Of a stretch of DNA of 64,000 bases, positions 28,070-61,665 are shown piece by piece. The translations under genes and the position numbers were made by a program. The notes beneath the pieces are model-generated. The model was not told the origin of the DNA and searched no databases. It saw only the letters and a list, made by a program, of their open reading frames with translations. Within the stretch, counting starts at the first letter, position 1; each line of letters opens with the position of its first letter. This stretch comes from Raillietiella orientalis. Its lineage: Eukaryota. The stretch spans positions 62,001-126,000 of the forward strand of contig JAYWIR010000010.1 in assembly GCA_036172245.1 (NCBI GenBank), written 5' to 3'.

Positions 28070-28163
28070 CGCTCTAGGGTGGACGTGTTTTCTCGGTGCT
28101 CCTCGTGCCAGGAAGTCTCCCCCAGTGCAAGCGTCGTGTGGTTCGGTGGTCGATCAGGCAGCG

Positions 28164-29470
28164 ATGCCTGACGCGACCACCAGGGATGGCCAGGGGGCAG
28201 CGGCAACGCCGCCCTCAGAGGCGATGGAGAGCCAGGGGGCGGCGGCAACGTCGCCCCCAGAGGCGATGGAGGTGGGGGCATCCGCCCCCACAGAATCGGT
28301 CCCCGCTGCAGCGCGGGCGTGGAGCGCAGTTGTGTCGGCGCCATCGCCTGCAGCCACGGCGGAATTGTCGGCCTATGTAGAGGAGGGGTACAACCCCTCA
28401 TTGTTCTACAAGGTAGGCAATTTATATTCTTTAGAGAGCGCGCGCGCCTTCTCGAAGGGCATGCGCGCTCTCGATGTGAAAGAGGAGGAGCTCAGCGCGA
28501 TGACCATCCGCAGCGGGGGTCAGTACGTTGAGGTCATCTGCAAACATGCAGAGCTGGCCCAACGACTGCTTAAAACCCCCGTTGTGATGGGGACGCGCAG
28601 GCTTCTCCCCACTACGGCGGACCGCAGCATGGTGGTCCACCTGTTAGGCGTGACCGCGCGAATGCGCAAAGAACAGGTTCGCGCCGCTTTGGAACAGTTC
28701 GGAACGGTCCACGCGCAGTGGACGAAAGTTAGTCCTTTCGAGGACTACACGGGGCTGCAACACGGCCTCACTGCTGCGCGCGTGACCGTTCGGGAGGGCT
28801 GCACTCTTCCCCACAAACTAGTGGTCGAAGGCGAAACCGTCGACCTCTGGTATGTGGGGAAGCCGAAATACTGTGGCTTCTGCAATACGTCGGGCCACCT
28901 CAAAAAGAGGTGTCCCAATGTGCAGTGCCAAGTATGCGGCACAATGGGCCACACGAGGGAGGTGTGCCCAAAAGCAGCAGTGCGGGTGGTTTCCAAGAGA
29001 AACCTTAAAAAACGCGCCCGGCTTCTGCAGAAAAGACTGGCGGCGAAAGCTGCCGCGAAGGCTGTGCCACCCGCGCCCAAGACCCAGGTTGCACCCGAGA
29101 CCCCGGCGACCAACGCCGAAAAAGTTGAGGGAGCCGACCAGGAGACTGAGTGGCAAGTGGCAACAGCCAAAAAATCAAAGAAGGAGAGGAGGATGGAAAA
29201 GAAAATCGCCTACCAACAGAAGAAGAAAGAGCAGGGAAGCGCGATAATTAAAGAGTGCAGCGTCGTTGTCGAACGCGTTCTCGATGTTGCCGAACGCTGC
29301 CGGAAAGAACTCGCCGCTACCGACGACCTCCCCTCTGTTGACACAGTCAACAGCGAGGGGAGCGAGCCGGCGGCGGCGTCCGTCATCGACACCACCATCG
29401 ATGACGTAGCCTTCGCGCGAGCCGCGGAGGAGCTGGCAGCCTCGTTGCAGCCAGAACCCTCCAAGGCCAG
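28164..29470 (+). CDS. Element A ORF1 (gag-like: RRM-like region, two CCHC knuckles), 5' part; resumes at 35124-35506
   Basis: CGFCNTSGHLKKRC and CQVCGTMGHTREVC. Confidence 0.9.
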
Positions 29471-29561
29471 TTGGAGGACGTGTTTTTCCTTCACTCCCCA
29501 AAGAGTAGTAGGAAAGCGCTTTTTCTTCTGTGTGGTGTTTTGTGTACATCGTCGGTGTCCA

Positions 29562-31312
29562 ATGGCCACGACGCCAGAGGACACCGCGATGGAGGTGGGA
29601 GTGGGGGAGGCTAGTTCGCCCCCACAGCCTACTGGAGCAGGGGCAGCCGCCCCGGAATCATCCCCGGCCACGCCGAGGACATGGAGCGCCATGGTGGCCG
29701 CGCCCAGCGCAGAAGCCATGGCGGAGATGGCCGCATACAAGGCCTCCGGGTACAAGCCATCGCTTGTCTACCAGGTAGGCAACTTGTTCGACGGCCGGAC
29801 AGCGCGCGCCTTCCGCAAAGCGTTGAAGGACGCGAACGTTACTGAGAAGGATCTGGACGGCCTCTCCGTCCTCAGCGGCGGGCAGCGGGTCGAGGTGGTC
29901 TGCAAAGATGTCACCTTGGCTCACCGCCTAATCCATGCGCCGCTGAACGTAGACGGCCGAAAGATCCTGCCAGTATCAATGGACCGCTCCGTGGTGGTCC
30001 ACATGACTGGCATCACCAGCCGCATGACGCGGTCAGCGGTTGGTGAGGAATTAAGAAAGTACGGTGAGGTGCACGCACTGTGGCCGAAACCCTCCATTTT
30101 CGACGGCTTCGATAGCCTTTTTGGTGGGCAGGCTGCAGCGCGGGTGACCGTACGGGAGACTTGTGGGCTTCCCCACAAACTACAGGTGGCGCAAGAAAAC
30201 CTCGACCTGTGGTATGTAGGGAAGCCCCGGTATTGCGGGCATTGTGATACCGTGGGACACCTACGTAAAAGGTGTCCCAATATACAATGCCATTTGTGCG
30301 GGGAGCGGGGCCACGTTCGGCGCGTGTGCCCAAAACGTCCCACCCCGGTTCCCCCTGCCGCGAAAAAAGCGCAGGGGAAACGCGCTTCAAAGGTCTCTAG
30401 ACCTAAAGTGGAAAAGGGCCAGCACAAGCTGCCAACACCTCAACCTCCGGCGCGTAAGCCGGAGGATAAACCTTCTGAAACGGTGGAAGGCGAAGAGGGA
30501 TGGCAGCTTGTAGAGGCCAGAACACCAAGGAAACTCCCACCCGCGGAGAGCAAAGAGCGCAAGACGGCCGGAAAGCCAAAAAAACCCGGTCCGCGCTCGA
30601 AAACTCTGCGCGAGTGCACGGTGGCACTCGAACGAATCGTCGTTCCCGAGATTGCCACCCGGAGCGTCGATCCTCCCCTTGCCGTTTCCGCTGCGCCCGA
30701 GGCTCGCGACGGCGAACCCTCTGTTTACACAGAGGGTGAGCCGCGCGACATAGCGGCGGTCGAAGCCGCGGACGCCGCGTTCGCGCAGGCGGCGGAGGAG
30801 CTCGCGGTCACGCTGGCCGAGCGTGAGAATCCCTCGCGCAAGGCCGTGCGAAGGCCGGCTCCGGCGAGGAAGGCCCCCACAGGTGAGTTAGACCTGGGGG
30901 CCGGAAGCACATCCTCCTCCTCGGAGGCACCCCCCAGGAAGTCGGGACGCAAGTCCCAGAAGCCCAGGAGGCGCCTCCCTCCACCAGCGAGGAGGAGAAG
31001 ACGGAAGCCGTCGCCAGCGTGGGAAATTCGGAGGAGGAATTCCCACGCTCGGAAGCCGTCGATGCGGCCACCCCCATGGAGGAGGGTGAACAGGGGGGTG
31101 AAGTCCCCCCTGCAGGTACCGACCCTGAACAGCCCGCCCCCATGGAGGAGGGCGAACAGGTAGGCGCGACTCCACCTGCGGGTGATCCGGCCGACGCGCC
31201 GGCACCGATGGAGGAGGGGGACCAGGTGCCTTCAGCACCTGACCCCCCTGCTCCACCTAGCGTCTCGCCCCAGCAGGTGGCGGACGCCGCACTGCCATCT
31301 TCCCAGGAGTAA
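29562..31312 (+). CDS. Element B ORF1 (frameshift near 30990)
   Basis: CGHCDTVGHLRKRC and CHLCGERGHVRRVC; PMEEG repeats at the C-terminus. Confidence 0.88.
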
Positions 31313-34300
31313 CACCTGGGCTCGCCAGTCGCCGTCGGATTCGCGCGGCCTGTTGGAATATCAACGGGCTGCGCGACGACGGTAACAGGCGAGATACAGC
31401 TGACACCCTGCGGGAGTTCGACCTGGCCCTGTTGCAGGAGATCCACGTGATCACCGCGGCAGACGTCCAGGAGATCGAGACGATCGCGGGGGGTCGGCTG
31501 TACTGGCAATGCGGCATTCGCAACACCTGCGGGGTCGCGTTCTTCGTGAAGCCGGCCATCGACGCTGCCGTGAAGGGCGTGCGCTTCGATGACGACGGTC
31601 GGGTCGGTCAGCTGACTCTCGGCTGGTCGGACTCGATCGATCTGATCGTCACGAATGTGTACGCCCCCACCGGTCAAAAGGGATACAGCAACCGTACCAG
31701 GCTGCTTGAATCCTTGAAGCGCGACTGGCTGGCGAACACGAGCGTGCGGAAGGCTCACCTGATAGCGGGAGATTTCAATCTCCGCCTGCTAACAGGTGAG
31801 CCGGAAACACAGGTGAACGCGATGAACGAGTTGTGCGCCGCCATGCGTGCGCGCAACTTGTTCGCGGGTGAGGGGAATTGTCCGCAGCATCGACCACGTC
31901 TTCCTCGACGCTGACCTGTGTTCACGGGTCGGCAAACGGGGGAGGGTTGCGTCAACGTTGTCGGACCATTCCCGGTTAATTTTCGAGATGCGGCCTCGCG
32001 ACAAAGGACCGCCATCCAGAGACTGGCGTCTGCCGGGGGACTGGACGCGACTCTCAGGTGCGAAGGAACACCTTCGCGAATACCTGAGAGGCGTCACGCT
32101 CCGGAATCTCCAAGACTGGGACCTTTTCAAGGAATCGGTCCGGGAGTTCTGCGAGCAGTTCCCCCTGGACCGCCTGCCCTCCGGATTCGGCGAGGGTCCT
32201 CGCAACCATCGGGCCTATTTACAGGCCCGAAGGTACGAGCGAACCCCTAATGTCCGTCGCCTGGCCGAGTACCGCGCCGGGGCCGAACGCCAAGTCTGGC
32301 AATCCGGGTCGGCCAGCTTGCTGGACGACCAGGGCCGGGAATGTTCGTCCCCGGCGTCGGTACGGCATCTCGTGCGGAGTTATTATTCCTCCCTTTACGC
32401 CAGGGCGCCCCCGGATCAAGATGCCTCTCGGCTCTTGCTTCCGGATGGTGCTGCGGCAATAGGGGAGGAGGAGTCGTTAAGCCTCGATGAGCCTTTTACC
32501 ACCGGCGAAATTCTCGCCGGTATCAAAAGGCTCAAGAGGCGGAAAGCTCCAGGGGAAGACGGCTTGCCCGCGGAGTTCTATCAGAGCTTCGCGGAAGAGC
32601 TGGCACCCCTGCTGCTTCAGCTGACAAGGCTGATCCGAGACGAAGGCAATGTTCCCGCCTCGTTTCGGTCAGCCAGAGTGAGGCTCCTTCCGAAAGGGGG
32701 AGACCTTAGGAATTTGAACAACTGGCGTCCGATCACGATTGTGAATACGGACGCCAAGTTGGTTGCCGGGCTATGGGCTTCGCGTCTGGGGCAGGTGGCA
32801 GAATCCATTATTAGCCCGGAGCAGACATATGCTGTTCCCGGGCGAAGTATGGATGCCAACCTCTTCTTCGCGAGCACGTGGATGCACGCGCAGAGGTGTC
32901 AAAAGGAAGGAAAAGGAAAAATCGGCAACCCCACTTTGGGGCCGCCAGCAGGGCAGGGAATGGACTCCCGGGCGGGGAAGGGGGCCTTAGCGCTCGCAGT
33001 CGATCTCCATAAGGCGTTCGACTGTGTTGACCAGGGGCTTTTGTTGGAGCTCCTGGGTCGCATGGGCTTCCCACCCTCCTTGATCAACTACCTGCGCTCC
33101 TGCTGGCGCCATGCGATAATTTCCGTCTCTTTCAGCGGTCAGAAGGTGCATGGCGTGCCGGTGCGGCGGGGCATCAGGCAGGGAGATAGCCTGAGTCCCC
33201 TGCTCTTCAGCACCTACTTTGAGTTGGTGCTGAGAGCCTACAGGGTGACTTTGGCCTCCTTGCCTAGCTCGTGTCCTGGCACGCCCGCCGTAGCAGCCTA
33301 TGCCGACGACCTTCTGCTCCTGTTACCTATGTCCACCCCGGCGAAGGCGGTCGGAGACTTCTTCGATCTGCTCAGCCGTGGAACCGGACTGCAGGTCAAC
33401 AGGGCGAAGTCGTCGGTGGTGCCAGTAGGTGCGGCGTGGGCAGGGCAGCAGGACTGGGTCCGTCTGGGGATCCCCACGGCGAGGTGCATCAAGTACCTTG
33501 GTGTGCCGTTGGGTGACTACTCCCCTGCGGAAGCGTGGTCCAGCTGTCTTCAAAAAGTCGAGACGGCGATCGGCCCGTTCCTGGAAGGCAAGTTTCACTT
33601 GCCGGAACGGGCCGCGGTTTGGAACGCCTTCGCGGCCCCCATCCTCCGCCCCTTGCTTTTTGTTTGCCCCGCCACCAGAGAATGCAAAAAGAGGACGAAG
33701 GACCTCCTCCGCATCGCCCTTTGGGGCAAGGGGAGGCCCCGAGTCCCTCTGCAGGACTTGTGCGCTCCGCGTCGGGACGGCGGCCTTGGCCTCCTGACGC
33801 TGGAGCGCGTGGAAATGCAGCTGCGGTGGCGAACCCTCGCCATCGCAGCGAAGATGTGGAGCACCCCTTGGTGCGTTCCGGCCCGCCACCTCGCCAGGCG
33901 TGTGTCCCGATGCGAAGGACTCGCGTCGTTTCTTCTGTGCCCTGGCCGGAAGATCCGAAGATGCGGCCTTATGCTCGGACGCATAGCAACCTTGGCGAAG
34001 ACGAACGGTTGGATGGTTTGTGGCCCCGCCAACTCCTCCGCCTGGTTGGAGGAGTCTGCTGGCACATGGGCTAAGCTGAACCGGAGGAGCGAAAACCACA
34101 TGAACTGCCTGCGAATCGGCCCATACGCCAACCGCACCCTGCGGGAAATACTGGAATTTCCTCGGAGTCGCAGCTGGGCGTTGACGACCCCCCTTGCTAC
34201 GGCGATGCCCTACCTCCTGAGGGCGCTTCAGGATTGCCAGAAGCCGAGGTGGCAAGTCACCTGCCAGATCGCAGGCAGGGAGAAGATGTTACGCGGCTGG

Positions 34301-34906
34301 ACCACAGGAGAACTGGCGGACGCCACGACCCCGAGCGTCCAGCCGCGTGGACTAATGAGATGGGGCGAGCTGCTCGCCATCCCTACGGATGTGCTGAAGT
34401 GGCCCCCGGTACTGAAGGAATCCAGGATCCTGCCCCTTAAGTGGCAAGAGTCGGCGTTGCTTTTGTTGCACTGGGGTCTACCCTGCAACGCGCGCCGCTT
34501 CCACTGGACGAGGGGAGCTGTGGATCCTTTGTGTGCCAGGTGCGGGGAGCGGGAGTCGCTTCCCCACCTTATTGTGGATTGTGCTGCCATCCGACCCCTC
34601 TGGGAACGGTTCGGGGCGACCCTAGGGCTCCCTACGGGCAGCACCCCCAGAGACGTTCTTCGGCCCCTCTTCGGGAAGGACGCACTGCAGCCAGCCGCAG
34701 CCATCGCAGCCTTGTGCTGTGTCCGTGGCATCGTGGCGGCATGGAGCGACGCCAATAACGAAGGAGTGGGTCCACACGCGAGGGATGTCGTCCCATACGC
34801 CCAACGCTTCATGCGGAGAGCTGCCGGATGGCCCCAACTGGGGAATATACGGACGGACCTCGAGGGTTTCCTTCAACGGATGGGCCCTCCTCACAGCGTT
34901 CAGTGA
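31312..34906 (+). CDS. Element B ORF2: APE, RT, zinc finger (one frameshift near 31870)
   Basis: WNING, LQE, NVYAP, AGDFN, IDH, SDH; KAPGEDG, WRPIT, DLHKAFD, GIRQGDSLSP, YADD, KYLG; CARCGERESLPHLIVDC. Confidence 0.95.
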
Positions 34907-49015: not shown

Positions 49016-51036
49016 GGACAACGCGTCAATCAATATTGGTTTGAGCGGCCGGCACGTGTACGGCCTGCCCGTACGCCGCGGCATCCGGCAGGGTGACAGC
49101 CTGAGCGCCTTGCTCTTCAGCATCTACTTTGAGTTGGTGCTGAGGGCATACAGGGTAACTCTGGCAGCCCTGCCGAGCTCGTGTGCCGGCACGCCTGCCG
49201 TGTCGGCCTATGCAGACGATCTTCTGCTGCTGCTTCCCGGGTCCACCCCGGCGAGTGCACTCGAGGACTTCTTCGAGTTGCTGCGCCGCGGGACGGGCCT
49301 GGAGGTGAACAGGGCGAAGTCGTCCATGGTCTTCGTCGGTTCGGCGTGGGCTGGACGGTCGGACTGGATCCGCTTGGGGATCCCCACGGGCAGGTGCTTC
49401 AAGTACCTCGGCGTACCGTTGGGGGACTTCTGCGCAGCAGAAGCCTGGTCCGACCGTCTCCAAAAGGCAGCGTTGGCGATCGGTCCGTTCCAAGAAGGCA
49501 AGTTCTACTTGCAGGAACGGGCCGCGGTGTGGAACGCGTTTGCGGCTCCCCTCCTTCGCCCCCTACTTTTTGTTTGCCCCGCCCCTTATTTTATTCGAAA
49601 ACGAGCAGCGGGCCTCCTGAGGACAGTCCTTTGGGGCAAAGGGAGGTCCCGTGTGAGGCTCAAAGACTTGTGCGCTCCACGTAAGGACGGTGGACTTGGC
49701 GTACTTACGCTGGAGCGCATGGAACTGCAACTTCGATTCAGGACTCTCGCCTTTGCGGCAGAATTGTGGGACACGCCTTGGTGCGTTCCAGCACGCCTTC
49801 TGGCCCAACGAGCCTGCGGAATCGGCGGACTCTTGTCGTTTCTGTCTGCGCGCGTCTGCAGAAGACCATACTGTGGCTCTATGCTGCGACGCATCTTGGT
49901 TGCGGTTCGGGAGAACGCCTGGATCTCCTGCCTCCCAGGGAACTACTCCGCCTGGTTGCACGAGTCAGTTTCCACCTGGGAAAAGATCCACGTTCCGGCG
50001 GGCACAAGGAACACTTGTATGAAAAGGCACGCCCGCTGGACGCTGCAGGAGATCGTGCAGTCCCACGACAAGCTTCTGTGGGCCTTGATAACCCCCCTCG
50101 CCCCAGTGCTGCCCTTCCTTGTGAATGCCAGGGACAGTAGCGAGCAGGGGAAATGGACCGTGTCCTGCACTATAGGCGGCAGGACACAATCGATAAAGGC
50201 GTGGACATCTTGGCAGCTAGCTCACGCTGCGACGCCGAGTGTCCCGCCCAACGGAATTCAACGCTGGGGCGAGCTACTCGGACTATCTCCGGAGGAGATG
50301 AAGTGGCCCCCAGCGTCCTGGAACAGTGCATCCCTCCCCCTGAAATGGCAGGATGTGGCGTTGCTTGTGGTACTCTGGGGATTACCATTCAAAGCACGCC
50401 TGCACCACACCACCCGGGGGGCTGTGGATCCCAATTGTGACCGGTGTGGGGAAAAAGAAACATTCCCCCACCTTCTCCTTGGATGTAGCGCCCTCCGCCC
50501 TTTGTGGGATCGTCTCGCGGCGATCCTGGACTTGCGCGGATGCGGCCCAAAGGACGTTTTCAGGCGCCTCTTCTGTAGTGACGCCTTGTCCCCGCCCGCT
50601 AGTGTAGCAGTACTCTGCTGCACCAGAGGAATAGTGGCGGCTTGGAACGCCACCAGAAGAAGGCGCCAGCCAACCGGCAACGCCTTACACTGGACTCGCC
50701 TTTTCGCGCGCAGTGTCAGCAAGTGGCGCCACTTGGGCGCTGAAAGGACTCAGCTTGTGCGGATCCTGAATAGGATCTAGAGGACCTTTCCACGCGCACC
50801 GTGATCCCTTCCCGGCCCTCCCACCCCTACAACATTTGTTCCCTCCCCCACATTTGAACTTTTTGTTTCTTTTTGTTTTCCTTTATTTCCCATCCTCGCG
50901 CATCGGAAGGACCTCTCCGGCATGGAGTCGGTAACCAGCAAGCTGTTTTGGAGTGGTGAACCTTCGAGTTCGCCACGCGATATTTCATGTATTTTTATTT
51001 CCAACAAATAAATGCCCCGGCACATCCGGGTGTGAA
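49016..51036 (+). mobile_element. Tx1 family F, 3' half (element D)
   Basis: ORF 49041-50780 covers RT to zinc finger; near-identical to 58375-60380; 3' motif at 51007-51036. Confidence 0.93.
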
Positions 51037-51048
51037 TTGCGACGGCGC

Positions 51049-52277
51049 TCCTGAGAGGGTGGACGTGCTTTTGTGGTGCTCCGCGTTTTTCTCGCGAGTG
51101 TTTTCGGAGTTTTCAGGTTTGAGCGGTTGTTCCTGGGCAGGGATGCCCGAGGACGCCGCAAAGACGGCGGAGGGGGGCGAGCGAGCCTCGTCCCCCCAGC
51201 CCATGGATGTGGGGGCCATCTCCCCCACGGAATCGTCCCCCGCCCCGGCGAGGGCTTGGAGCGCGGTGGTGGCGGCGCCTGCGCCGCCCCCCGCAGAGGA
51301 ACAGCGGGCTTACATGGCCGACGGGTATAACCCGGCCTTGTTATACAAGGTAGGTGGCCTGTACTCCCCCGCGGTATTACGGTCTTTCGCGGCCGAGTTC
51401 AAAAAATTAAAAGTCCCGGAGGACGAAGTCCTCGGACTTTCGGTTAGGAGTGGCGGGCAGCTGGTTGAGCTGAACTGCAAGTCTGCAGGGATGGCTCAGC
51501 AGCTGCTCCGCCTGCCGGTGACCGTGAACGGTCGAAGAATCTTCCCGTTCACGGCGGACAACTCCATCGTTGTCCACCTCACCGGTATTACGATGAGAAT
51601 GGCTAAGACCGCCGTTCGCGAAAGTTTGGAGAAGTTCGGGACGGTCCACGCGTTGTGGGCAAAACCCAATGTCCTGGGTTACACCAGGGCATTCAGTGGT
51701 TACGCCGCTGCGCGCGTGACGGTACGTGCCGAGGGTGGGCTACCCCACAGACTGCAGGTCGGGGAGGAGGAGATCGACCTGTGGTATGCGGGGAAACCCG
51801 TATACTGAGGCTTTTGCCAGGTGTCGGGGCACCTGAAGAAGAAATGCCCCAACATCGTGTGCTTGGGCTGCGGCGGAAAGGGGCACATCAGGCGGATGTG
51901 CCCCAACAGAAAAAGGTCAGTTCCTACAGGCGCGAGGAAAGCAGACACGCCGAAGGAACAGGACCGGAGCCACGAAATGGCAGAAACCCACCCTGCCGAC
52001 CAACCCGCTGCTCAGCCATCCTCCAGCGAACAACCAGCTGGAGAAAGCGCCGAGAATGAGGAAGGTTGGCAGAAGGTGGAGAAGAAGAAAAAGGCGCCGA
52101 AGAAGGAGGTCAAACGGATCAACAAGGCGGCACCGCTGAAGAAGAAGCAGGTGATCCGCGCTTGTTCGGTGAAAATCGAACGCGTATCGGTCATAAAAAC
52201 CGCGGAAAAAATAGCGGTAAAACCGATCGATACCGTCGAATCCGCGCCGATCGCGCCCGCCGTGACGTCACCGCGGT
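51049..52277 (+). mobile_element. Tx1 family F, 5' part with partial ORF1
   Basis: 5' motif at 51061; ATG at 51143; stop codon in the first knuckle. Confidence 0.88.
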
Positions 52278-52365
52278 GAGTGGACGTGTTTTTTCGGTGC
52301 TCCGGAAAACCGTCTGTTTTTGCTGGTGTTTGTGGGTTTTTCAGCGCGGTTGTTCCTGGGCAGAA

Positions 52366-54111
52366 ATGCCTGAGGACGCCGCTAAGGCGGTGGAGGGGGG
52401 CGAGCGAGCCTCGTCCCCCCAACCCATGGATGTGGGGGCCAGCTCCCCCACGGATTCGTCCCCCGCCCCGGCGAGGGCTTGGAGTGCGGTGGTGGCGGCG
52501 CCCGCGCCGCTTCCCACAGAGGAACAGCGGGCCTACGAGGCCCACGGATACAACCCGTCCCTACTCTATAAGGTAGGTGGGTTGTACTCGCCGGTAATGC
52601 TCCGCACGTTCGCCGCGGAATTTAAAAAGTTGAGAGTGCCCGAAGAAGAAGTTCTCGGCCTCTCCGTGCGCAGTGGCGGTCAGCTCGTCGAGCTGAACTG
52701 CAGAACTGCAGGAATGGCACAGCAATTGCTGAGATGCCCGGTGACTGTGAACGGGAGAAGGATTTTCCTGTTCACAGCCGACAAATCCATCGTCGTCCAC
52801 CTCACGGGCATAACGATGAGGATGGCAAAGAACGCCGTACGAGCAGAACTCGAGAAATACGGCACCGTCCACGCTCTGTGGGCTACGCCCAACACCCTGG
52901 GTTATACCAGGGCGTTCAGTGGCTATGCCGCCGCGCGTGTGACGGTCCGAGAGGGAAGTGGTTTACCCCACCGACTGCAGGTGGATGATGAATACATCGA
53001 CCTGTGGTACATAGGGAAACCAAAATTTTGTGGAAATTGCGAGGCCATCGGGCACCTCAAACGGAGGTGCCCTAACATCGTGTGCCTCCGATGTGGTACC
53101 AAGGGACACGTACGAAAGGTGTGCCCTTCTCGTTTTGCGTCCACTCCTGCTGGCAACAAGAAAACCGAGTCGCCACAGGTGCAGGACAAACAGCATCCCC
53201 CATCGGGTGAAAGCTCGCAAGCAGGCGAGAAACCGACGCCGGAGGAAGAAAAGGCGGAGAATGGCGAAGCTGTCGCCGAAAACAGCTGGAAGTTGGTGAA
53301 GAAAAAGGAGAGCAAGGGGAAAGGTACAGCCCCCAAGAAAACGGTAAAAACGGTGGCGAAAAGCGTCCGTCGTTCCACCGTAAACATCGATCGCTTTACC
53401 GCGAAGGCTTCCTCCAGCAAGCCGTCGATCGATACCGCAGCTGCAACATCGATCGATAGAGCGGTTCCGGCCCCGTCCACCGAAATCGCTACGGTAGCGA
53501 TCGATATCGCGGCACCTGTTGCCAAGATCGATACTATTGTTCCAGTTCCGTCCGCTGGAAGTGTTGTAGTGGCGAGTGAAAGCTCAGCCGCTGCTGTTCC
53601 GATCGATAGCCCGCCGGTTGCGGCTATCGATTCGGCAGTGACGTCACCGGACTCGCCAACAGGCGGCGAAGTCTGCGATGACGCGGAACGCATCTCCAAT
53701 GCAACGTTCGCGCAAGCCGCGGAAGAGTTGGCTGCCTTGTTAAGGCAGCCCGTCAAGGCCGAGAAGAAAGCCGTTCGACGCCCGGCTACGGCGAAGGACC
53801 CAGAAAACAGCGAGTCCGACGCCGAAACCAAGAACTCGTCGACCGTAGGGTTGCCGAAAAGAAAAAATAAAAGTTCAACGGGAGCTCGTAGGCGTGCTGT
53901 CCCCACTCAGGTAGAGGTGGAAATGGCATCCGACAGCGAGGAGGAGTCAATGTGCGTTCCAGCGTGCGACTCTGCGCCTGAGAGCATCCTATTCCAACTG
54001 TTGACACAGTCCTCGGCCGACGGAGCACACCAAACTCCTTCCGAATCCGTCGGCGTGGACGCGGAACACCCGTTTCCTGAAAGGGAGACGGTTTCCTCCA
54101 CACCACCATAA
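52366..54111 (+). CDS. Element F' ORF1 (uninterrupted)
   Basis: CGNCEAIGHLKRRC and CLRCGTKGHVRKVC. Confidence 0.9.
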   Translation: MPEDAAKAVEGGERASSPQPMDVGASSPTDSSPAPARAWSAVVAAPAPLPTEEQRAYEAHGYNPSLLYKVGGLYSPVMLRTFAAEFKKLRVPEEEVLGLSVRSGGQLVELNCRTAGMAQQLLRCPVTVNGRRIFLFTADKSIVVHLTGITMRMAKNAVRAELEKYGTVHALWATPNTLGYTRAFSGYAAARVTVREGSGLPHRLQVDDEYIDLWYIGKPKFCGNCEAIGHLKRRCPNIVCLRCGTKGHVRKVCPSRFASTPAGNKKTESPQVQDKQHPPSGESSQAGEKPTPEEEKAENGEAVAENSWKLVKKKESKGKGTAPKKTVKTVAKSVRRSTVNIDRFTAKASSSKPSIDTAAATSIDRAVPAPSTEIATVAIDIAAPVAKIDTIVPVPSAGSVVVASESSAAAVPIDSPPVAAIDSAVTSPDSPTGGEVCDDAERISNATFAQAAEELAALLRQPVKAEKKAVRRPATAKDPENSESDAETKNSSTVGLPKRKNKSSTGARRRAVPTQVEVEMASDSEEESMCVPACDSAPESILFQLLTQSSADGAHQTPSESVGVDAEHPFPERETVSSTPP

Positions 54112-55825
54112 ATAAACCTATGGGTGGGCTCGCCTGCTGCCGTCGCTTGCGAATTACTTGTTGGAACGTCAACGGGTTGAGCAACGACGGCGAGAGGCGA
54201 GACGTAGCCGCCATACTGCGAGACTTCGACCTGGCTCTACTGCAAGAGACCCACGTGCTCACAGCAGAGGCAGGCCAGGATTTCGAGAGGATCGCAGGGG
54301 GCAGGCTACTGTGGAGGAACGGAACAGATCACTCCTGCGGAGTGGCCTTTTTGCTGAAGCCGTCCGTCGAAAACTCACTGCGTAGTGCACGGTTCGACGG
54401 GGACGGTCGAGTTGGGCAGCTTGTTCTCAAGTGGTCCGACTCGATCGACCTCGTGGTCATGAACCTGTACGCTCCGGTGGGCAGCCACAGGGCCGAGGAA
54501 CGCACTGCGTTCTTCGAATCCCTGCGGCGAGACTGGTTGGCCGAAGCAGGCGTGCGAAGGGCGCACCTCATTGCGGGCGATTTCAATCTCCGCCTGCTGG
54601 CAGGTGCGCCCAACCGACGAGCACAGCTGGTCAACGAGTTGTGCGCAGCAATGAATGCGCGCAACTTGTTGGCCGGTGATGCCGGGAGAGATCGGAACAT
54701 CGACCACATGTTCCTCGACAACCACCTGTGCACGCGGGTGGGAACTCGAGGAACGCTCCCGGCAGAGCTGTCCGACCATCCACGGCTCGTGCTCGAGTTA
54801 CATCCGCGCAATAAGGGCCCTCCCCTGAAAACATGGCGCCTGCCAGGGGATTGGTTGCGCCTCGAAGGAGCGGCGGAACATCTACGCTCCTTCCTGCGAG
54901 GATTCCAGCTTCAGACGCTCGCGGACTGGGACGAAATGAAGTGCTCAGTCCGCGAGTTTTGCGACCAGTTTCCCCTGGAACGTCTTCCGCCGGGCTTCGG
55001 CGATGGGGTCAGGAACGAGCGGGCCTACCTTCAGGCCCGCCGGTATTCCAGGCGTCCCGACGTCCGTCGCTTGGCGGAATTCGAAGCTGAGGCGGAGAGG
55101 CAGGCCTGGCAGTCAGGCTCGGCCTGCTTGCTGGACCATCAGGGCCAAGAACACTCCAGCCCAGCTCAGGTAAGCCGCATCGTGCGGGAGTTTTATTCCT
55201 CCTTCTACGCGCCGTTAACACCGGAGCGCCATTTAGCGCAGCGCCTGCTGCCGGATGGCCTCCCCGCGCTCAAGGAGGAGGATCGTTTCAGGTTGGCAGA
55301 ACCGTTCACGATGGTGGAGGTCGTCTCCGCCATCAGCAGGCTGAAGAATAGGAAGGCACCAGGGGAGGACGGCCTGCCCGCGGAGTTTTACCATCGCTTC
55401 GCGCCAGAGCTGGCCCCCCTGGTGCTCAGGTTAAGTACGCTGATCCGCGAACACGGCGAAGTTCCCGCCTCGTTCCGGTCAGCAAAAGTATGTCTCCTGC
55501 CGAAGTCAGGAGACTTACGCAACATTGGCAACTGGCGTCCCATCACAGTGGTGAATGCGGACGCAAAGTGCATGCCAAGTTGTGGGCTGAGCGTTTGGGG
55601 CGGGTGGCCGCTTCCGTGATCAGTCGGGAGCAGACCTACGCTGTTCCCGGACGAAGCATGGAGTCAAACCTGCTCCTCGCCAGCACATGGTGGCAGTTGC
55701 GACAACGCGTTGCCCAGGAAGGTCAAGGGAGTCTTGCGCTCCCCTCTGACCAGGAACATCGGATAGAGGGTGGGAGGGACTCGGCGGAACCTTTGCAGTC
55801 GCGGTCGACTTGCACAAAGCATTCA

Positions 55826-56479
55826 AATCCAATGGCAAACCTACAACTCAGAAATTGGCAAATGGACATACTTAAGATCATCAGAACCACACCAGACGAA
55901 AGGAAAATATACTGGTTCTATGACCCAGTAGGAGGAATCGGCAAAACCACTTTCGCCAAATTCCTGTACCTTAAAAAATCAGCAATCTACATGCGCAGCT
56001 GCAAGAAAGCTGATGCAGCACACATTTATCATGGCGAAAGGATCATAGTTGTAGACCTGACAAGAGACAACCAAGAAATAATTCAATATGGATTCATAGA
56101 GACATTGAAAAACGGAATCATCTTCGATTCCAAGTATCAAGGTTCCATCAAATACTTCGAGCCTCCACACATACTAGTCTTCAGTAACTGGGAACCTGAC
56201 TACTCCAAGATGTCCAGTGATAGATGGATTGTCAAGAACATAAGCAAATCCGAACCAACCAAATTGTGTCCATGGATGATTGATGACACAGGACTCGTGC
56301 TCCCTTGGGCCTGCCCTTCAGGCCCTAGTACAGGGCAGTCCCGAGACTCACCCGACTCCTCATGCTCCACTTTGTCACCCCCTCGCCAGAACTTGATAAA
56401 TAAAAATACATCCCATTGCAAGTTTTGCATTTTTCAAGTATACAGGGGAGGGTCTCTTAGATGTTTGAATTCCACATAA
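55826..56479 (+). CDS. rep: Rep C-terminal SF3 helicase half
   Basis: Walker A DPVGGIGKT, Walker B IVVDLTR, motif C VFSN, Arg finger SSDRW; motif style resembles nanovirus/alphasatellite-like Reps. Confidence 0.93.
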   Translation, partial: NPMANLQLRNWQMDILKIIRTTPDERKIYWFYDPVGGIGKTTFAKFLYLKKSAIYMRSCKKADAAHIYHGERIIVVDLTRDNQEIIQYGFIETLKNGIIFDSKYQGSIKYFEPPHILVFSNWEPDYSKMSSDRWIVKNISKSEPTKLCPWMIDDTGLVLPWACPSGPSTGQSRDSPDSSCSTLSPPRQNLINKNTSHCKFCIFQVYRGGSLRCLNST

Positions 56480-57459
56480 AACGTTCGAGTCAGTCTATAA
56501 ATAGGCCAACCCTGAGTTAGCCTTCCGTTTTTAGGACATACACCAGACTGACATCCTTCCCTTATCGAATCTGGAATATCCACACCTGACATATGCTTCA
56601 TTACATGCATACGATTCATAAACATTTCCACCAGCAACTCTTGATCCAAACGAGAACCAAAACCACAATCAACCCAAGGACAACGCACATAGCGCTCCAA
56701 ATTCCCTCCATAACAATGCATATCCTTCCTTATATACGCCCTGGAATACAGCCGTATTCCACGAACACCAAAATAACGAACTAAACATCCGCTCGTCTCC
56801 TTATGACCACTTATCACATCTTCCACCTTGTGATAAGGCATTCCTGCAAGCGATCCAAAAAATTCACCCTGATTGTGCGACTGATACAATAAAAGATTCC
56901 GATAAGACACTTTCATTCCAAACTCTTCCGCCATATTTCCTATCGTTAAACCCAAAGACAGCGGTTCGATCTTCATAGACATTCCACGCAACCGCACATA
57001 TCGGTAATAACGACCAAACTCTTGCAAATTCAACTCAGTCAGTATACTTTGCAGATTTCCAGCACTCTCACAATACGTAAACATCCAAGAGCAATTTACA
57101 TAATCCCCGTCAGCGGACCTCAAAGACGCATAATGCTGCGCATTTAACATTATATCACGCGATACCACGCGCCTCGCACGAGACAAACGACCACGCGGAC
57201 TCCGATACAATCGCAAACGCCGACGACGATTATACGGACGTCTACGCTTCTTGAAAGTCGAATAGCCAGTGCGAGCTACACGCCTACGCTTCCCAGTTAC
57301 ACTCGACGACTTCACGCGAAATCGCTTACGACCGCGACTGAGCAGCACGTGCAGCCATCTCACCGGTCGACCTTCAACTGACGTCACCCATCCCCTTCCC
57401 CCGTATACTCCTACTCTGGCGGGTGCGCGCGCACCCGTCCGACTTACTAAGCCTTCCAC
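56434..57459 (-). CDS. cap: Putative capsid protein (start codon uncertain)
   Basis: Open frame of 341 codons; Arg-rich N-terminus (KKRRRPYNRRRRLR); C-terminal FYVEFK; opposite strand to rep. Confidence 0.85.
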   Translation of the reverse strand: MEGLVSRTGARAPARVGVYGGRGWVTSVEGRPVRWLHVLLSRGRKRFRVKSSSVTGKRRRVARTGYSTFKKRRRPYNRRRRLRLYRSPRGRLSRARRVVSRDIMLNAQHYASLRSADGDYVNCSWMFTYCESAGNLQSILTELNLQEFGRYYRYVRLRGMSMKIEPLSLGLTIGNMAEEFGMKVSYRNLLLYQSHNQGEFFGSLAGMPYHKVEDVISGHKETSGCLVRYFGVRGIRLYSRAYIRKDMHCYGGNLERYVRCPWVDCGFGSRLDQELLVEMFMNRMHVMKHMSGVDIPDSIREGCQSGVCPKNGRLTQGWPIYRLTRTFYVEFKHLRDPPLYT

Positions 57460-57600
57460 GAGGTCGGATCATGCCACGACCTGCACACGTGGACAAGTAC
57501 ATCTTGTTCCGCATTCCTAAGTCTTCCACGACTGCGGACGAAGACCAGACACCCTCATAAAAAACTTGCAACATCGACACAATTTCCAAGGTTGTGCCCT

Positions 57601-57632
57601 ATGCAATCTGGGTAATACTAACCAGATTGCAT
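57601..57632 (-). promoter_or_regulatory. Rolling-circle origin stem-loop
   Basis: 11-bp stem ATGCAATCTGG/CCAGATTGCAT; loop reads TAGTATTAC on the minus strand (57612-57620). Confidence 0.95.
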
Positions 57633-57716
57633 CTATTGCGCAGTTGGTGAGTATTTATACCGCCACACATTGAGGCACAAACCAGTCTCACCTCGACAGA
57701 ATTACCTGCAGTAACC

Positions 57717-58270
57717 ATGCCTTACGGACACTTTCTCTACTGGTGTTTTACATTGTGCAACTACCTCGAAGAACTGCAACAGATCAAGGATTGGTGCAGA
57801 CGACAATGCACATACGCCGTCATCGGAAAGGAAACAGCCACAACGGGTACACCACACCTCCAAGGCTATTTCCAATTACGCGATCCACGCACCTTGCCAA
57901 GCCTTAAACGACCTCCGTTCGAGAAAGCCCATCTCGAACGAGCAAAAGGATCTCCGCAGAGCAACTTACGGTACTGCACGAAAGAGGACCACCAAGCATG
58001 GACATACGGTCTAATTCAAGACCACAAAGAAACCACAGACTACCAGGACATGGTAATTATTTTATTCACAATAAAAAAAACTAATAATTTACTATATTCC
58101 AGATACTCCAACTCATAAAAAACGGAGCCACTGAGCTCGACATACTCGAACAACACACAAAATTTTATTCAAAAAATATCAACTTTGTCAAGGAGTGCTT
58201 CCGTTTAACAAGGAGCAGAACACATCCTAATCCCATGTACGATTTACAACTCCAGAACTGGCAAATGGAC
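57717..58270 (+). CDS. rep: Rep N-terminal HUH endonuclease half with a 50-nt intron (58053-58102)
   Basis: Motifs CFTLCN, PHLQG, YCTK; removing GTAATT..CTAAT..TTCCAG restores the frame to ILQLIKNG..NWQMD. Confidence 0.9.
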
Positions 58271-60380
58271 TGGCGTCGATGTCAGACTGCGTCGACCAGG
58301 AACTCCTTTTGGAGCTCCTGGAACGCATGGGTTTCCCGGCAGTGCTCCAGTCCTACCTGCGCTCCTGCTGGCGCAACGCGTCAATAAATATTGGTTTCAG
58401 CGGCCGGCACGTGTACGGCGTGCCAGTGCGCCGCGGTATCCGGCAGGGTGACAGCCTGAGCCCCTTGCTCTTCAGCATCTACTTCGAGTTGGTGCTGAGG
58501 GCATACAGGGTAACTCTGGCAACCCTGCCGAGCTCGTGTGCCGGAACGCCTGCCGTGTCGGCCTATGCAGACGATCTTCTGCTGCTGCTTCCCGGATCCA
58601 CCCCGGCGAGTGCGCTCGAGGACTTCTTCGAGTTGCTGCGCCGCGGGACGGGCCTGGAGGTGAACAGGGCGAAGTCGTCCATGGTCTCTGTCGGTTCGGC
58701 GTGGGCTGGACGGTCGGACTGGATCCGCTTGGGGATCCCCACGGGCAGGTGCTTCAAGTACCTCGGCGTACCGTTGGGGGACTTCTGCGCAGCAGAAGCC
58801 TGGTCCGACCGTCTCCAAAAGGCAGCGTTGGCGATCGGTCCGTTCCAAGAAGGCAAGTTCTACTTGCAGGAACGGGCCGCGGTGTGGAACGCGTTTGCGG
58901 TTCCCCTCCTTCGCCCCCTACTTTTTGTTTGCCCCGCCCCTTATTTTATCCGAAAACGAGCAGCGGGCCTCCTGAGGACAGTCCTTTGGGGCAAAGGGAG
59001 GTCCCGTGTGAGGCTCAAAGACTTGTGCGCTCCACGTAAGGACGGTGGACTTGGCGTTCTTACGCTGGAGCGCATGGAACTACAACTTGGATTCAGAACT
59101 CTTGCCCTTGTGGCGGAATTGTGGGACACGCCTTGGTGCGTTCCAGCACGCCTCCTGGCCCAACGAGCCTGCGGAATCGGCGGACTTTTGTCGTTTCTGT
59201 CTGCGCGCGTCTGCAGAAGACCATACTGTGGCTCTATGCTGCGACGCATCTTCGTTGCGGTCCGGGAGAACGCCTGGATCTCCTCCCTACCAGGGAACTA
59301 CTCTGCCTGGTTGCACGACTCAGTGTCCACCTGGGAAAAGATCCACGTTCCGGCGGGCACAAGGAACACTTGCCTGAAAAGGCACGCACGCTGGACGCTG
59401 CAGGAGATCGTGCAGTCCCACGACAAGCTTCCGTGGGCCTTGATAACCCCCTTCGCCCCAGTGCTGCCCTTCCTTGTGAATGCCAGGGACAGTAGCGAGC
59501 AGGGGAAATGGACCGTGTCCTGCACCATAGGCGGCAGGACACAATCGATAAAGGCGTGGACATCTCGGCAGCTAGCTGACGCTGCGACGCCGAGTGTCCC
59601 GCCCAACGGAATTCGACGCTGGGGAGAGCTACTCGGACTATCCCCGGAGGAGATGAAGTGGCCCCCAGCGTCCTGAAACAGTGCATCCCTCCCCCTGAAA
59701 TGGCAGGATGTGGCGTTGCTTGTGGTACTCTGGGGATTATCATTCAAAGCACGCCTGCATCACACCACCCGGAGGGCTGTGGATCCTAATTGTGACCGGT
59801 GTGGGGAAAAAGAAACATTCCCCCACCTTCTCCTTGAGTGTAGCGCCCTCCGCCCTTTGTGGGATCGTCTCGCGGCGATCCTGGACTTGCGCGGATGCGG
59901 CCCAAAGGACGTTTTCAGCCGCCTCTTCTGTAGTGACGCCTTGTCCCCGCCCGCTAGTGTAGCAGTCCTCTGCTGCATCAGAGGAATAGTGGCGGCTTGG
60001 AACGCCACCAGAAGAAGGCGTCAGCCAACCGGCAACGCCTTACACTGGATTCGCCTTTTCGCGCGCAGTGTCTGCAAGTGGCGTTACTTAGGCGCTGAAA
60101 GGACTCAGCTTGTCCGGGTCCTGAATAGGATCTAGAGGACCTGCCCACGCGCACCGTGATCCCTTCCCTGTCCTCCCACCCCTAAAACATTCGTTCCCCC
60201 CACAACTTTTTGTTTCTTTTTGTTTGTTATTTCCCATCCCCGCGCATCGGAAGGACCTCTCCGGCATGCAGCCGGTAACCAGCAAGCTGTTTTGGAGTGG
60301 TGAACCGTGGGGTTTGCCACGCGACATTTCCTGTATTTTTATTTCACTGAAATGAATGCCCCGGCACATCCGGGTGTGAA

Positions 60381-61665
60381 TCGCCACGGCGCGCTTCACC
60401 ATGGACGACCGGAGGCTCATGCCTTCGCAGATCCTCCTCGGTGACGTCGTCGTCTATCTGCGGTTTGCCGGACAAACCCCAGCTTGCCGCAACTGCGGGA
60501 AGGAGGGCCACCGTCCGCGGAAGTGCCCAACACGCAGTTGCCGATACTGTAAGCTGCTCGGCCACTCGATTAACGAGTGCGCCTAGGTAAAACGAAAGAG
60601 GGCGAGAAACCCGCGAAAGGCAAGCCGGCCACGGCGAGCCGAACGGCGGCAAAGGCTGAAAAGCCTCGCGCGATCTCAAAGGATCCCGCCACTCTGCTTG
60701 CACCTTCCGGTAAAAAGGTGCAAAAGGCAGCAGTGGCGACGGACGCACTGGCCGCCATCGCCGCATCGGAGGCCTTGGAAAGGATGCGGAGGACCCTGGA
60801 AGCCCTCGCGCCCAACCGAGGCAAACCGGAAGGCGGCGAGGATGGATTCGTCGGGGGAAGGAAGAAGGAGCGCAAACCGCGCGATCCTTCCCACTTCCCC
60901 ATTATAAAGGTAGGCGGGGTCAAGAGGCAGCCTCGCGCGCCAAAGAAGGCGCAAGAAAAAGCCTCCGCTGCCGTCGCGCGCGCCGTCGCAAACACCCGCG
61001 GCGAGAGGGCAGCTGCCGACGCCGCGACTCCGAAAGGGGGAACGGCGACGAAGGCACCCTCCGAGAATGCTGGACCAGCTCCGAATTGCCAGCAGAAGAA
61101 GAGGCAGGCGAAACGCCCGCCGCACGCGCGGAATTCGGACTTCGAGGTGGAGTCCGAAGGCAGCGCTCGCCAAGCCCCGGTCAAGGCCAGGGCTGCGCGC
61201 AAGCGGAAACTTGCCAGGCAAGAGCCTGATGCCGGGAACGGTTCCCGATGCTCCTCGGAGCCCGAGGCAATGGTCCTCGACTCCACCGAACCAGCCGCGA
61301 GCGGCGCGGAGGAGACAGGAAGCGCTTGCGTTCCCCCATCCGCCGTGCTCCCGGCTGATGCCTCGCCGGACGGGGCGAGGAACGCGCCTCCATGTCCGTA
61401 GCAGCAATGCGCGGTCTCGCTTCTTGTCGTGGCGTCCGAGTGGCCTGTTGGAACGTCAACGGGCTGCAGTACAATGAGAAGAGGCGATTGGTTGCCAACG
61501 TCTTGCGCGACTTCGATCTGGCCCTGCTGCAGGACATTCACGCACTCTCCGAACAGCAAGCGGCCGATCTGGCAGTTCGTGCAGGCGGGACGCTCCATTG
61601 GAGGTCAGACTCCTAGAATACCAGCGGAGTAGAATTCCTAGTCCGGGACAGGTTGGCGGGGGAAT
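60381..61665 (+). mobile_element. Family E-like element: 3' part of ORF1 and APE start (target of family F)
   Basis: CRNCGKEGHRPRKC, CRYCKLLGHSINEC, WNVNG. Confidence 0.88.

What the first reader, a model, noticed from the sequence alone, without database searches (positions are those of the whole stretch)
55825..58270. Reconstructable, apparently intact endogenous CRESS virus with spliced Rep and origin on the cap strand
Seen: circularising the insert joins the Rep N-half (HUH motifs, 50-nt GT-AG intron) to the Rep C-half (SF3 motifs). Cap is open for 341 codons. The TAGTATTAC nonamer lies on the cap-coding strand. No internal stops are seen, although the surrounding LINE carries lesions. 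Inference: a recent integration that ties a probably unclassified CRESS lineage to this animal host.
Basis: partly seen in the sequence, partly recalled or inferred. Interest (0 to 1): 0.8.

Follow-up and report, generated by a model that had tools for sequence, protein, structure and literature searches.

The report
Integrated CRESS-DNA virus genome inside LINE
A slightly more than full-length copy of a small circular Rep-encoding DNA virus sits inside a host LINE retrotransposon with its reading frames still open, a fairly ordinary kind of viral fossil from a lineage with no close known relative.

Summary
A 2460-nt, 45% GC insert (55825-58284) splits a 60% GC LINE reverse-transcriptase frame between two adjacent bases. 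There is no target duplication or loss, and 14 nt of filler lie at the right junction. The insert holds:
- a Rep HUH-endonuclease exon, a 50-nt GT-AG intron and a linker exon at its right end;
- the Rep SF3-helicase half at its left end;
- a 344-codon arginine-rich ORF on the opposite strand;
- an 11-bp stem-loop with TAGTATTAC on that same strand.

A profile of 52 unspliced relatives tiles the three Rep pieces colinearly.

"Intact" and "reconstructable" are overstated. The 42-nt terminal overlap is only 31/42 identical. The cap frame has no in-frame ATG before its arginine-rich part. In the integrated order Rep is cut in two, and there is only one origin.

The origin lying on the cap strand is common among relatives. 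An intron is rare among them.

Rep is at most about 49% identical to anything in the searched collections. Cap has no sequence relative.

Best reading: an end-joined, probably young, endogenous CRESS element. It is a new member of a known kind. The host could not be named.

The parts
55825..58284 (.). Whole insert (2460 nt, 45% GC) inside a LINE RT frame
   Evidence: Paralog LINE copies near 33k, 37k and 45k align up to 55824 and resume at 58285 with no base lost or duplicated. GC falls from about 0.60 to 0.40-0.47.
55826..55867 (+). Left copy of the terminal overlap (encodes NPMANLQLRNWQMD)
   Evidence: Direct repeat with spacing 2403, which is the unit length. Both copies map to profile nodes 156-166.
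58229..58270 (+). Right copy of the terminal overlap (encodes NPMYDLQLQNWQMD), 31/42 nt identical to the left copy
   Evidence: The differences fall codon-wise: 3 codons differ synonymously, 3 differ by replacement, there is no indel, and the frame is kept (my reading).
58271..58284 (.). 14-nt filler at the right junction
   Evidence: It matches neither the left viral copy nor the LINE paralogs.
57717..58052 (+). Rep exon 1: HUH endonuclease domain (motifs CFTLCNY, PHLQGY, YCTKE)
   Evidence: PF02407 at E 1.3e-16. Profile nodes 11-114. Matches solved Rep endonuclease domains 7kii, 2hw0 and 2hwt.
58053..58102 (+). 50-nt AT-rich GT...AG intron, phase 0
   Evidence: Read-through hits a stop at 58118. 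With the intron removed, exon 1 (to node 114) and exon 2 (from node 118) are colinear with 52 unspliced relatives. There is no transcript evidence.
58103..58270 (+). Rep exon 2, linker part up to the integration break
   Evidence: Open 56 codons. Profile nodes 118-166, E 1.9e-6.
55826..56479 (+). Rep C-half: SF3 helicase (GGIGKT, IIVVDL, VFSN), conserved up to about 56254, then a 74-codon tail ending in a stop at 56477-56479
   Evidence: PF00910. Profile nodes 156-298, E 2e-63. Twenty columns are invariant across it and 7 relatives. Tail length is compared with relatives.
56434..57468 (-). Putative capsid ORF: 344 codons stop to stop, arginine-rich N part (20 R/K in 40 aa), first in-frame ATG at 57150
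   Evidence: Weak Circo_capsid match at E 0.0033, 18 bits, below the 36-bit cut-off. Language-model features are nearest to Cressdnaviricota capsid clusters at 0.96. No sequence homolog was found.
57601..57632 (-). Origin-like stem-loop: 11-bp stem and 10-nt loop; nonamer TAGTATTAC on the minus strand (57620-57612)
   Evidence: DNA fold -10.7 kcal/mol, z -3.0. Inverted repeat I7.
57652..57659 (.). TATA-like octamer (TATTTATA on +, TATAAATA on -), 58 nt upstream of the Rep ATG
   Evidence: Read directly. Function is inferred.
52060..55824 (+). Left part of the carrier LINE (ORF1 with zinc knuckle, APE endonuclease, start of RT), with frame lesions
   Evidence: Weak zf-CCHC match, 19.7 bits, just below the 20.8-bit cut-off. 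Exo_endo_phos at E 4.6e-14. Frame changes seen.
58285..59676 (+). Right part of the carrier LINE (rest of RT), open for 463 codons
   Evidence: RVT_1 at E 3.6e-13, starting at profile position 82. 58374-60392 is 95.3% identical over 2030 nt to 49019-51048.

Best explanation
This is an endogenous viral element. A slightly longer-than-unit-length (2403 + 42 nt) double-stranded copy of a circular Rep-encoding ssDNA (CRESS) virus was joined into a chromosomal LINE by non-homologous or microhomology-type end joining.

The source virus had an ambisense layout. A spliced Rep gene lay on one strand. A capsid gene and the TAGTATTAC origin hairpin lay on the other.

The break fell inside the Rep gene, so the integrated order is helicase half, cap (reverse strand), intergenic origin, endonuclease half. 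As integrated, the locus cannot encode full-length Rep. The endonuclease half reads out into LINE sequence, and the helicase half has no promoter of its own. The locus also has a single origin. I therefore read it as a replication-dead but little-decayed fossil, and probably a young one.

Shown: the anatomy, the exact insertion site, and the homology of the Rep pieces. Inferred: the end-joining mechanism, the young age, capsid identity, germline status, and use of the intron.
For: - Insertion site: three paralogous LINE copies are contiguous across the site, with no duplication or loss and 14 nt of filler.
- Composition: GC drops from about 0.60 to about 0.45 within the insert.
- Rep: PF02407 and PF00910 both score above their cut-offs. 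A 301-node profile of 52 relatives covers nodes 11-114, 118-166 and 156-298 in the three pieces, which together make a full Rep with an overlap at the break. All 20 columns that are invariant in the 8-sequence alignment are kept.
- Origin: the hairpin folds with z -3.0.
- Open frames: 344 codons against a maximum of 275 in 1000 shuffles.
- DNA-level capture: the intron, both strands and the origin are all retained, so the element was captured as DNA and not through an mRNA.
- Presence in reads: pieces of the insert (57204-57395 and 57635-57861) occur with 0 differences in contigs of run X1 at depth 3-5. That run may be the assembly's own sample.
- Precedent: integration of a complete cressdnavirus genome into a host chromosome is described in PMC10193959 (passages seen).
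Against: - No contig listed spans either junction, so the junctions rest on this assembly alone.
- No whole genome was available to look for other copies or for an orthologous empty site.
- The 42-nt terminal overlap is only 74% identical. A simple concatemer of one genome does not predict this.
- Capsid identity rests on weak evidence: a sub-threshold Pfam hit, language-model features and arginine richness.
- The single-sequence fold failed, with pLDDT 31.6.
- The cap frame lacks an upstream in-frame ATG.
- Rep has a 74-residue tail beyond the profile end. Only 5 of 51 relatives have a tail of 45 residues or more.
Confidence: 0.8

Rival explanations
1. The inserted DNA was a recombinant of two co-replicating variants of the virus, so that each end of the insert comes from a different parent. 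A circularised version would then be a chimera and not one natural genome.
For: The two overlap copies differ at 11 of 42 nt but keep the frame. Three codons differ synonymously, 3 differ by replacement, and there is no indel. Both copies align to the same profile nodes, 156-166. Neutral decay of that size would be expected to have broken the roughly 660 open codons elsewhere in the insert.
Against: Only 14 codons are compared. No second variant was seen: one search listed no variant letters inside the insert, although cover there was patchy. Error-prone repair at one junction, or gene conversion from another copy elsewhere in the genome, cannot be excluded.
Confidence: 0.45
2. It is an old element whose frames are kept open by host selection, for example a co-opted capsid or a truncated Rep endonuclease.
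For: Both frames are open while the carrier LINE has at least two frame changes within 300 nt. The cap unit and its upstream intergenic region are contiguous in the integrated order. The helicase half sits on a long terminal branch, 0.88 against a median of 0.20.
Against: Rep is split by the integration, yet both halves remain open and keep their motifs, which selection on the host side would not explain. No orthologs or paralogs were available for a dN/dS test. There are no RNA data.
Confidence: 0.08
3. It is an assembly or library artefact, in which free viral DNA in the sample was falsely joined to host DNA, or it is a somatic integration and not a germline one.
For: Only one copy lies in the window. 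No independent junction-spanning read was seen. The viral pieces in run X1 have low depth, 3-5.
Against: A false join would not resume the same LINE copy at the very next base, in frame, on the far side. The 14-nt filler and the lack of terminal identity are typical of real end joining. The depth of 3-5 may simply be the run's single-copy level: the run holds 1482 million letters and the flanks are multi-copy.
Confidence: 0.1

Closest known systems
Complete krikovirus (proposed Draupnirviridae) genome integrated in chromosome 2 of S. crocodilurus (PMC10193959, passages seen)
   Same: A whole cressdnavirus genome, with Rep and Cap regions, endogenised in a host chromosome and used to argue for the host range of an otherwise metagenomic lineage.
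   Different: That element is drawn with stop codons, whereas no in-frame stops occur here. I could not compare the sequences. The Rep lineage here is unnamed, and the host here is not known.
Type II CRESS genomes, including cycloviruses with TAGTATTAC (II) and intron-interrupted Rep (PMC6186406, passages and Table 3 legend seen)
   Same: Ambisense layout, the nonamer TAGTATTAC on the strand opposite Rep, and a Rep ORF interrupted by an intron.
   Different: - The unit length is 2403 nt, against the 1722-1769 nt of the cyclovirus-like genomes listed in that table.
- The helicase half has no match to the solved PCV2 Rep hexamer at E up to 0.1. It resembles a different helicase type (KIYWFYD...KYxS...SxDRW) shared with P0043-P0046.
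- The putative cap has 344 codons.
Uncultured CRESS contigs of IMG/VR (L001-L080) and proteins P0043-P0046
   Same: Same Rep architecture, colinear over 288 of 301 profile nodes. Contigs are 2.0-2.8 kb. The nonamer hairpin lies opposite Rep in 31 of 80.
   Different: - Helicase-half identity is only 33-46%.
- The element sits on a long terminal branch, with a sister clade of 7 at support 0.82.
- Rep is unspliced in 52 of 80. Only L063 shows an interruption, and I did not resolve its splice sites.
- No cap similarity was found.
Endogenous cyclovirus-like and other CRESS-like elements in mites, a nematode and other eukaryotes (cited in PMC6186406, passages seen)
   Same: Rep-bearing CRESS sequences fixed in invertebrate genomes and used as evidence of host range.
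   Different: The passages I saw treat those elements as Rep sequences. Here cap, origin and intron are all present in one locus.

Membership tests
Cressdnaviricota (CRESS-DNA virus genome) | Rep with an N-terminal HUH endonuclease domain (motifs I-III) | tested here: met
   PF02407 at E 1.3e-16, 61 bits against a 26-bit cut-off. The motifs are aligned. Solved Rep endonuclease domains match at E down to 1.9e-13.
Cressdnaviricota (CRESS-DNA virus genome) | Rep C-terminal SF3 helicase domain (Walker A, Walker B, motif C) | tested here: met
   PF00910 at 23.4 bits against a 21.5-bit cut-off. Profile nodes 156-298 at E 2e-63. Invariant G36, G39, K40, D63 and N121 are kept.
Cressdnaviricota (CRESS-DNA virus genome) | Origin hairpin with a NANTATTAC-type nonamer at its apex | tested here: met
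   11-bp stem, TAGTATTAC in a 10-nt loop, z -3.0. The motif definition is taken from PMC6186406.
Cressdnaviricota (CRESS-DNA virus genome) | Capsid gene (jelly-roll protein, usually with a basic N-terminus) | tested here: inconclusive
   Basic N part with 20 R/K in 40 aa. Circo_capsid match at 18 bits, below the 36-bit cut-off. Language-model features score 0.96 to Cressdnaviricota capsid clusters. There were 0 sequence hits. The fold model was unusable at pLDDT 31.6.
Cressdnaviricota (CRESS-DNA virus genome) | Circular ssDNA genome | not testable with these tools
   Only the circular permutation with a 42-nt overlap points to a circular or concatemeric source.
Circoviridae, genus Cyclovirus | Origin nonamer on the cap-encoding strand, ambisense genes | tested here: met
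Circoviridae, genus Cyclovirus | Circovirus-type Rep helicase and a small genome (about 1.7-2.1 kb; the range is recalled, and 1722-1769 nt examples appear) | tested here: not met
   The unit length is 2403 nt. The helicase half gives no match to PCV2 Rep 7lar at E up to 0.1, while the N half does match it. No named cyclovirus sequence was available for a direct identity test.
Endogenous viral element | Viral DNA flanked on both sides by host sequence in one molecule, with a definable empty site | tested here: met
   The LINE is interrupted between 55824 and 58285, and three paralogs are contiguous there. These are paralogous empty sites, not an orthologous one.
Endogenous viral element | Germline transmission or fixation, with junctions supported by independent reads | tested here: inconclusive
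   Run X1 holds identical pieces of the insert, but no listed contig crosses a junction. No genome is held.

The most novel reading that the evidence does not exclude
The diverged 42-nt overlap records that two variants of this virus were replicating together in the host's germline when the DNA was captured. On this reading the element is a very young snapshot of an infection by a deep-branching CRESS lineage that may still be circulating. It would give that lineage, and a foothold in a large host-less environmental clade (354 IMG/VR relatives), its first host.
Probability: 0.3. Interest if true: 0.55.

Novelty: new member of a known kind. Interest (0 to 1): 0.4.

Why it matters
Most CRESS-DNA viruses are known only from metagenomes and have no host. 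An integrated copy is one of the few kinds of sequence evidence that tie a lineage to an organism.

This copy is unusually complete. It carries Rep with its intron, a putative cap and the origin, so it documents the gene layout and a eukaryotic-type intron for a lineage that is less than 50% identical to anything in the searched collections.

The junctions also show a capture mechanism: end joining within the Rep gene, not at the origin and not through a LINE-copied mRNA.

The finding is incremental. Endogenous CRESS elements, including a whole-genome one, are already in print (PMC6186406, PMC10193959).

Tried and rejected
Searches and tools that led nowhere:
- Whole-genome search: no genome is held.
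- Close exogenous counterpart: a single-protein scan of viral contigs found none. The metagenome-contig scan gave 1 locus at 38% identity.
- Cap relatives: 0 hits among 4379 candidates. 0 hits among 1.84 billion representatives. 0 of 80 relatives' loci by tblastn. The best phmmer E-value was 0.071 among 281 non-Rep ORFs.
- Cap fold: single-sequence AlphaFold gave pLDDT 31.6, so no fold search was run.
- RNA evidence for the intron: no RNA holder was listed.
- Run X1: no contig across either junction and no circle-type joint was listed. Large parts of the insert had no cover.
- Rfam: 0 matches in the window. The bacterial promoter/terminator scan gave counts at shuffle level and is irrelevant for a eukaryotic virus.
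- Host identity: Pfam on other window ORFs gave only LINE domains.
- Iterons: only weak short repeats lie near the hairpin.
- L063 intron: GT and AG dinucleotides lie in the gap, but the simple pair I tried does not restore the frame (my reading).

Explanations considered and rejected:
- LINE-mediated capture of viral mRNA: the intron, both strands and the origin are present, and there is no poly-A or target duplication.
- Rep- or origin-mediated integration: the junctions lie 650 nt and 1786 nt from the nonamer, inside the Rep gene.
- Cyclovirus membership: see the membership test.
- Known contaminant virus: identity to every searched protein is 54% or less, and that only over half of the N-half.
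Full report
**What is there**

Between 55825 and 58284 the window's composition drops from about 60% to about 45% GC. The flanks are one LINE:
- an APE endonuclease at 54081-55619 (Exo_endo_phos, E 4.6e-14);
- the second part of the RT domain from 58285 (RVT_1, E 3.6e-13, starting at profile position 82);
- an upstream ORF1 with a weak zinc-knuckle match.

Three other copies of this LINE family in the window (near 33k, 37k and 45k) align up to 55824. They resume at 58285 with no base between (...AAAGCATTC|GACTGCGTCGACC...). The insert is therefore 2460 nt, placed between two adjacent bases of the RT frame. There is no target-site duplication and no deletion. Its last 14 nt (58271-58284) match neither the virus nor the LINE and look like junction filler.

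**Rep**

- Exon 1 (57717-58052, 112 codons from an ATG) is a Viral_Rep domain: PF02407, E 1.3e-16, 61 bits. It carries CFTLCNY, PHLQGY and YCTKE, and it matches solved Rep endonuclease domains (7kii E 1.9e-13, 2hw0, 2hwt).
- Reading on from 58052 hits a stop at 58118.
- Positions 58053-58102 are 50 nt, AT-rich, and run from GT to AG.
- The frame after that stretch (58103-58270) is open for 56 codons.
- At the left end of the insert, 55826-56290 scores above threshold for the SF3 helicase family PF00910.

To test colinearity without joining anything, I built a profile from the 52 relatives whose Rep is one uninterrupted frame. I then scored the three pieces separately:
- exon 1 covers nodes 11-114;
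- exon 2 covers nodes 118-166 (E 1.9e-6);
- the helicase piece covers nodes 156-298 of 301 (E 2e-63).

Removing exactly the 50 nt therefore restores colinearity with the unspliced relatives. The two ends of the insert overlap on nodes 156-166. All 20 columns that are invariant in an alignment with 7 relatives are kept, including Walker A G/G/K, Walker B D and motif C N.

**The terminal overlap**

The overlap is 55826-55867 against 58229-58270, with a spacing of 2403 nt, which is the unit length. It is only 31/42 identical. It encodes NPMANLQLRNWQMD at the left end and NPMYDLQLQNWQMD at the right.

Read codon by codon (my reading), 3 codons differ synonymously, 3 differ by replacement, and there is no indel. 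A concatemer copied from one genome would give identical ends. Neutral decay of 26% would be expected to have broken the roughly 660 open codons elsewhere in the insert.

My best guess, at about even odds, is that two variants contributed to the captured molecule. Either way the in-silico circle is ambiguous at its seam.

**Cap**

- The minus-strand frame 57468-56437 is open for 344 codons. In 1000 shuffles of the insert the longest open frame had a mean of 113 and a maximum of 275.
- Its N part is strongly basic, with 20 R/K in a 40-residue window.
- Pfam gives only a sub-threshold Circo_capsid hit (E 0.0033, 18 bits against 36).
- Language-model features are nearest to Cressdnaviricota capsid clusters (0.96, 210 of 256 features), but the query's recognition value of 1822 is below the 2300 guide.
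- No sequence relative was found: 0 of 4379 candidates, 0 of 1.84 billion representatives, 0 of 80 relatives' loci, and a best E-value of 0.071 among 281 non-Rep ORFs.
- A single-sequence fold was unusable at pLDDT 31.6.

The first in-frame ATG is codon 107 (57150), after the basic region. Upstream ATGs are in other frames. One, at 57473, is followed 27 nt later by a GTAAGT word. A short spliced leader is therefore possible, as are a non-AUG start or a lesion. I could not decide between these, so 'cap intact' is not established.

**Origin**

The stem-loop at 57601-57632 has an 11-bp stem and a 10-nt loop. TAGTATTAC reads on the minus strand, which is the cap strand. A TATA-like octamer at 57652-57659 lies 58 nt before the Rep ATG.

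**Relatives**

- The N half finds 38 proteins among 67 candidates. The best identities are 46-49% over at least 73% of the query, or up to 54% over half of it.
- The helicase half finds 4 proteins among 148 candidates, the best at 41%.
- A profile scan of IMG/VR gave 505 pattern matches, of which 354 were confirmed relatives. The best 80 were kept, at 33-46% identity, mostly on 2.0-2.8 kb contigs.
- Single-protein scans for close relatives found none in viral contigs and one at 38% in metagenome contigs.
- In a FastTree of 82 helicase halves the element has a terminal branch of 0.88, against a median of 0.20. It is sister to 7 contigs at support 0.82.

It is therefore a deep, so far solitary branch of a large uncultured clade. 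The only name any source gave was 'Cressdnaviricota sp.'. No named family references were available, so I could not place it in a family.

**How special is the layout?**

Among the 80 relatives (Rep on +), a NA[G/T]TATTAC nonamer with a stem of at least 7 bp lies opposite Rep in 31, on the Rep strand in 19, and was not found in 30. The origin on the cap strand is the 'type II' layout listed in PMC6186406. It is common here.

The intron is rare:
- 52 of 80 relatives have both Rep domains in one stop-free frame;
- most of the other 28 do as well, or their Rep wraps over a contig end;
- only L063 changes frame between the domains, and I could not resolve its splice sites.

Rep introns as such are known in CRESS genomes (PMC6186406, Table 3 legend).

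Rep here runs 74 residues past the end of the profile. It passes through a 63% GC stretch (56285-56392) and an AATAAA at 56399. In 51 relatives the tail is usually 0-15 residues, and 5 have 45 or more.

**Mechanism**

The intron, both coding strands and the origin are all present, and there is no poly-A or target duplication. The DNA was therefore not captured through a LINE-copied mRNA.

The junctions lie inside the Rep gene, 650 nt and 1786 nt from the nonamer, so Rep nicking at the origin did not make them. A precise insertion with filler and no homology fits end joining of a linear, slightly over-length double-stranded replicative form.

In the integrated order:
- the endonuclease half, with its promoter region and intron, reads into LINE sequence and stops at 58385-58387;
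- the helicase half follows LINE-derived sequence in an open frame (55352-56479) and has no promoter of its own;
- only one origin is present.

I therefore read the locus as unable to make full-length Rep.

**Age and reality**

The carrier LINE has at least two frame changes and an in-frame TGA within 55560-55750. Its right part is 95.3% identical over 2030 nt to the copy at 49019-51048. The insert has no in-frame stop, so it looks younger than its carrier, but I cannot put a number on this.

In coded run X1, contigs match 57204-57395 and 57635-57861 with 0 differences at depth 3-5. The LINE flanks are covered by many diverged copies. That run may be the sample the assembly came from. No listed contig crosses a junction, and no circle-type joint was listed.

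An assembly chimera is unlikely, because the same LINE copy resumes at the very next base.

**Comparison with what is known**

Endogenous CRESS elements are well documented (PMC6186406, passages; PMC7493932, passages). A complete krikovirus genome integrated in a lizard chromosome, with stop codons, is shown in PMC10193959 (figure legend passage).

This locus is a new member of that kind. It is notable for its completeness, its open frames, its intron and the odd diverged overlap. It is not a cyclovirus: the unit length is 2403 nt, and the helicase half has no match to PCV2 Rep.

I did not see the supplements of the cited papers. They may list comparable whole-genome elements.

Noticed in passing
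window 57438-57468 and 57508-57538: Two 31-nt imperfect direct repeats (77% identical, 70 nt apart) lie in the cap-side intergenic/leader region. Each is bounded by its own 6-nt inverted ends (TCCGAC...GTCGGA and TCCGCA...TGCGGA). The region folds better than shuffles (z -3.0). They may be regulatory or Rep-binding elements.
   Followed up: partly
window 56285-56392: A 108-nt stretch of 63% GC lies inside the otherwise roughly 41% GC 3' end of Rep, within the 74-codon tail that most relatives lack. It is followed by ...TGATAAATAAA, which has tandem stops in another frame next to an AATAAA at 56399. This could mark a lost original stop or a further small intron.
   Followed up: partly
window 26000-64000: A dense nest of GC-rich (about 60%) APE-type LINE copies with long open frames (1057 and 1026 codons at 27990-31163 and 31826-34906). 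One pair is 95% identical (49019-51048 and 58374-60392), which suggests a recently active family.
   Followed up: partly
window 1-8000: The first 8 kb are only 28-34% GC with CpG observed/expected of 0.44. The LINE nest is about 60% GC with CpG o/e of about 1.0. This is a sharp compositional contrast between the background and the repeats.
   Followed up: no
window 55352-56479: A 375-codon open frame runs from LINE-derived sequence (first ATG at 55490) straight into the Rep helicase half. A LINE-driven transcript could therefore encode a fusion protein. This is probably a coincidence of frames.
   Followed up: no
L013-L016, L021, L023, L025, L027, L028, L031-L034, L049, L057: A subset of the Rep relatives sits on contigs of 4.2-5.1 kb, about twice the usual CRESS size, with further large ORFs of 480-617 codons. 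Their nature was not examined.
   Followed up: no
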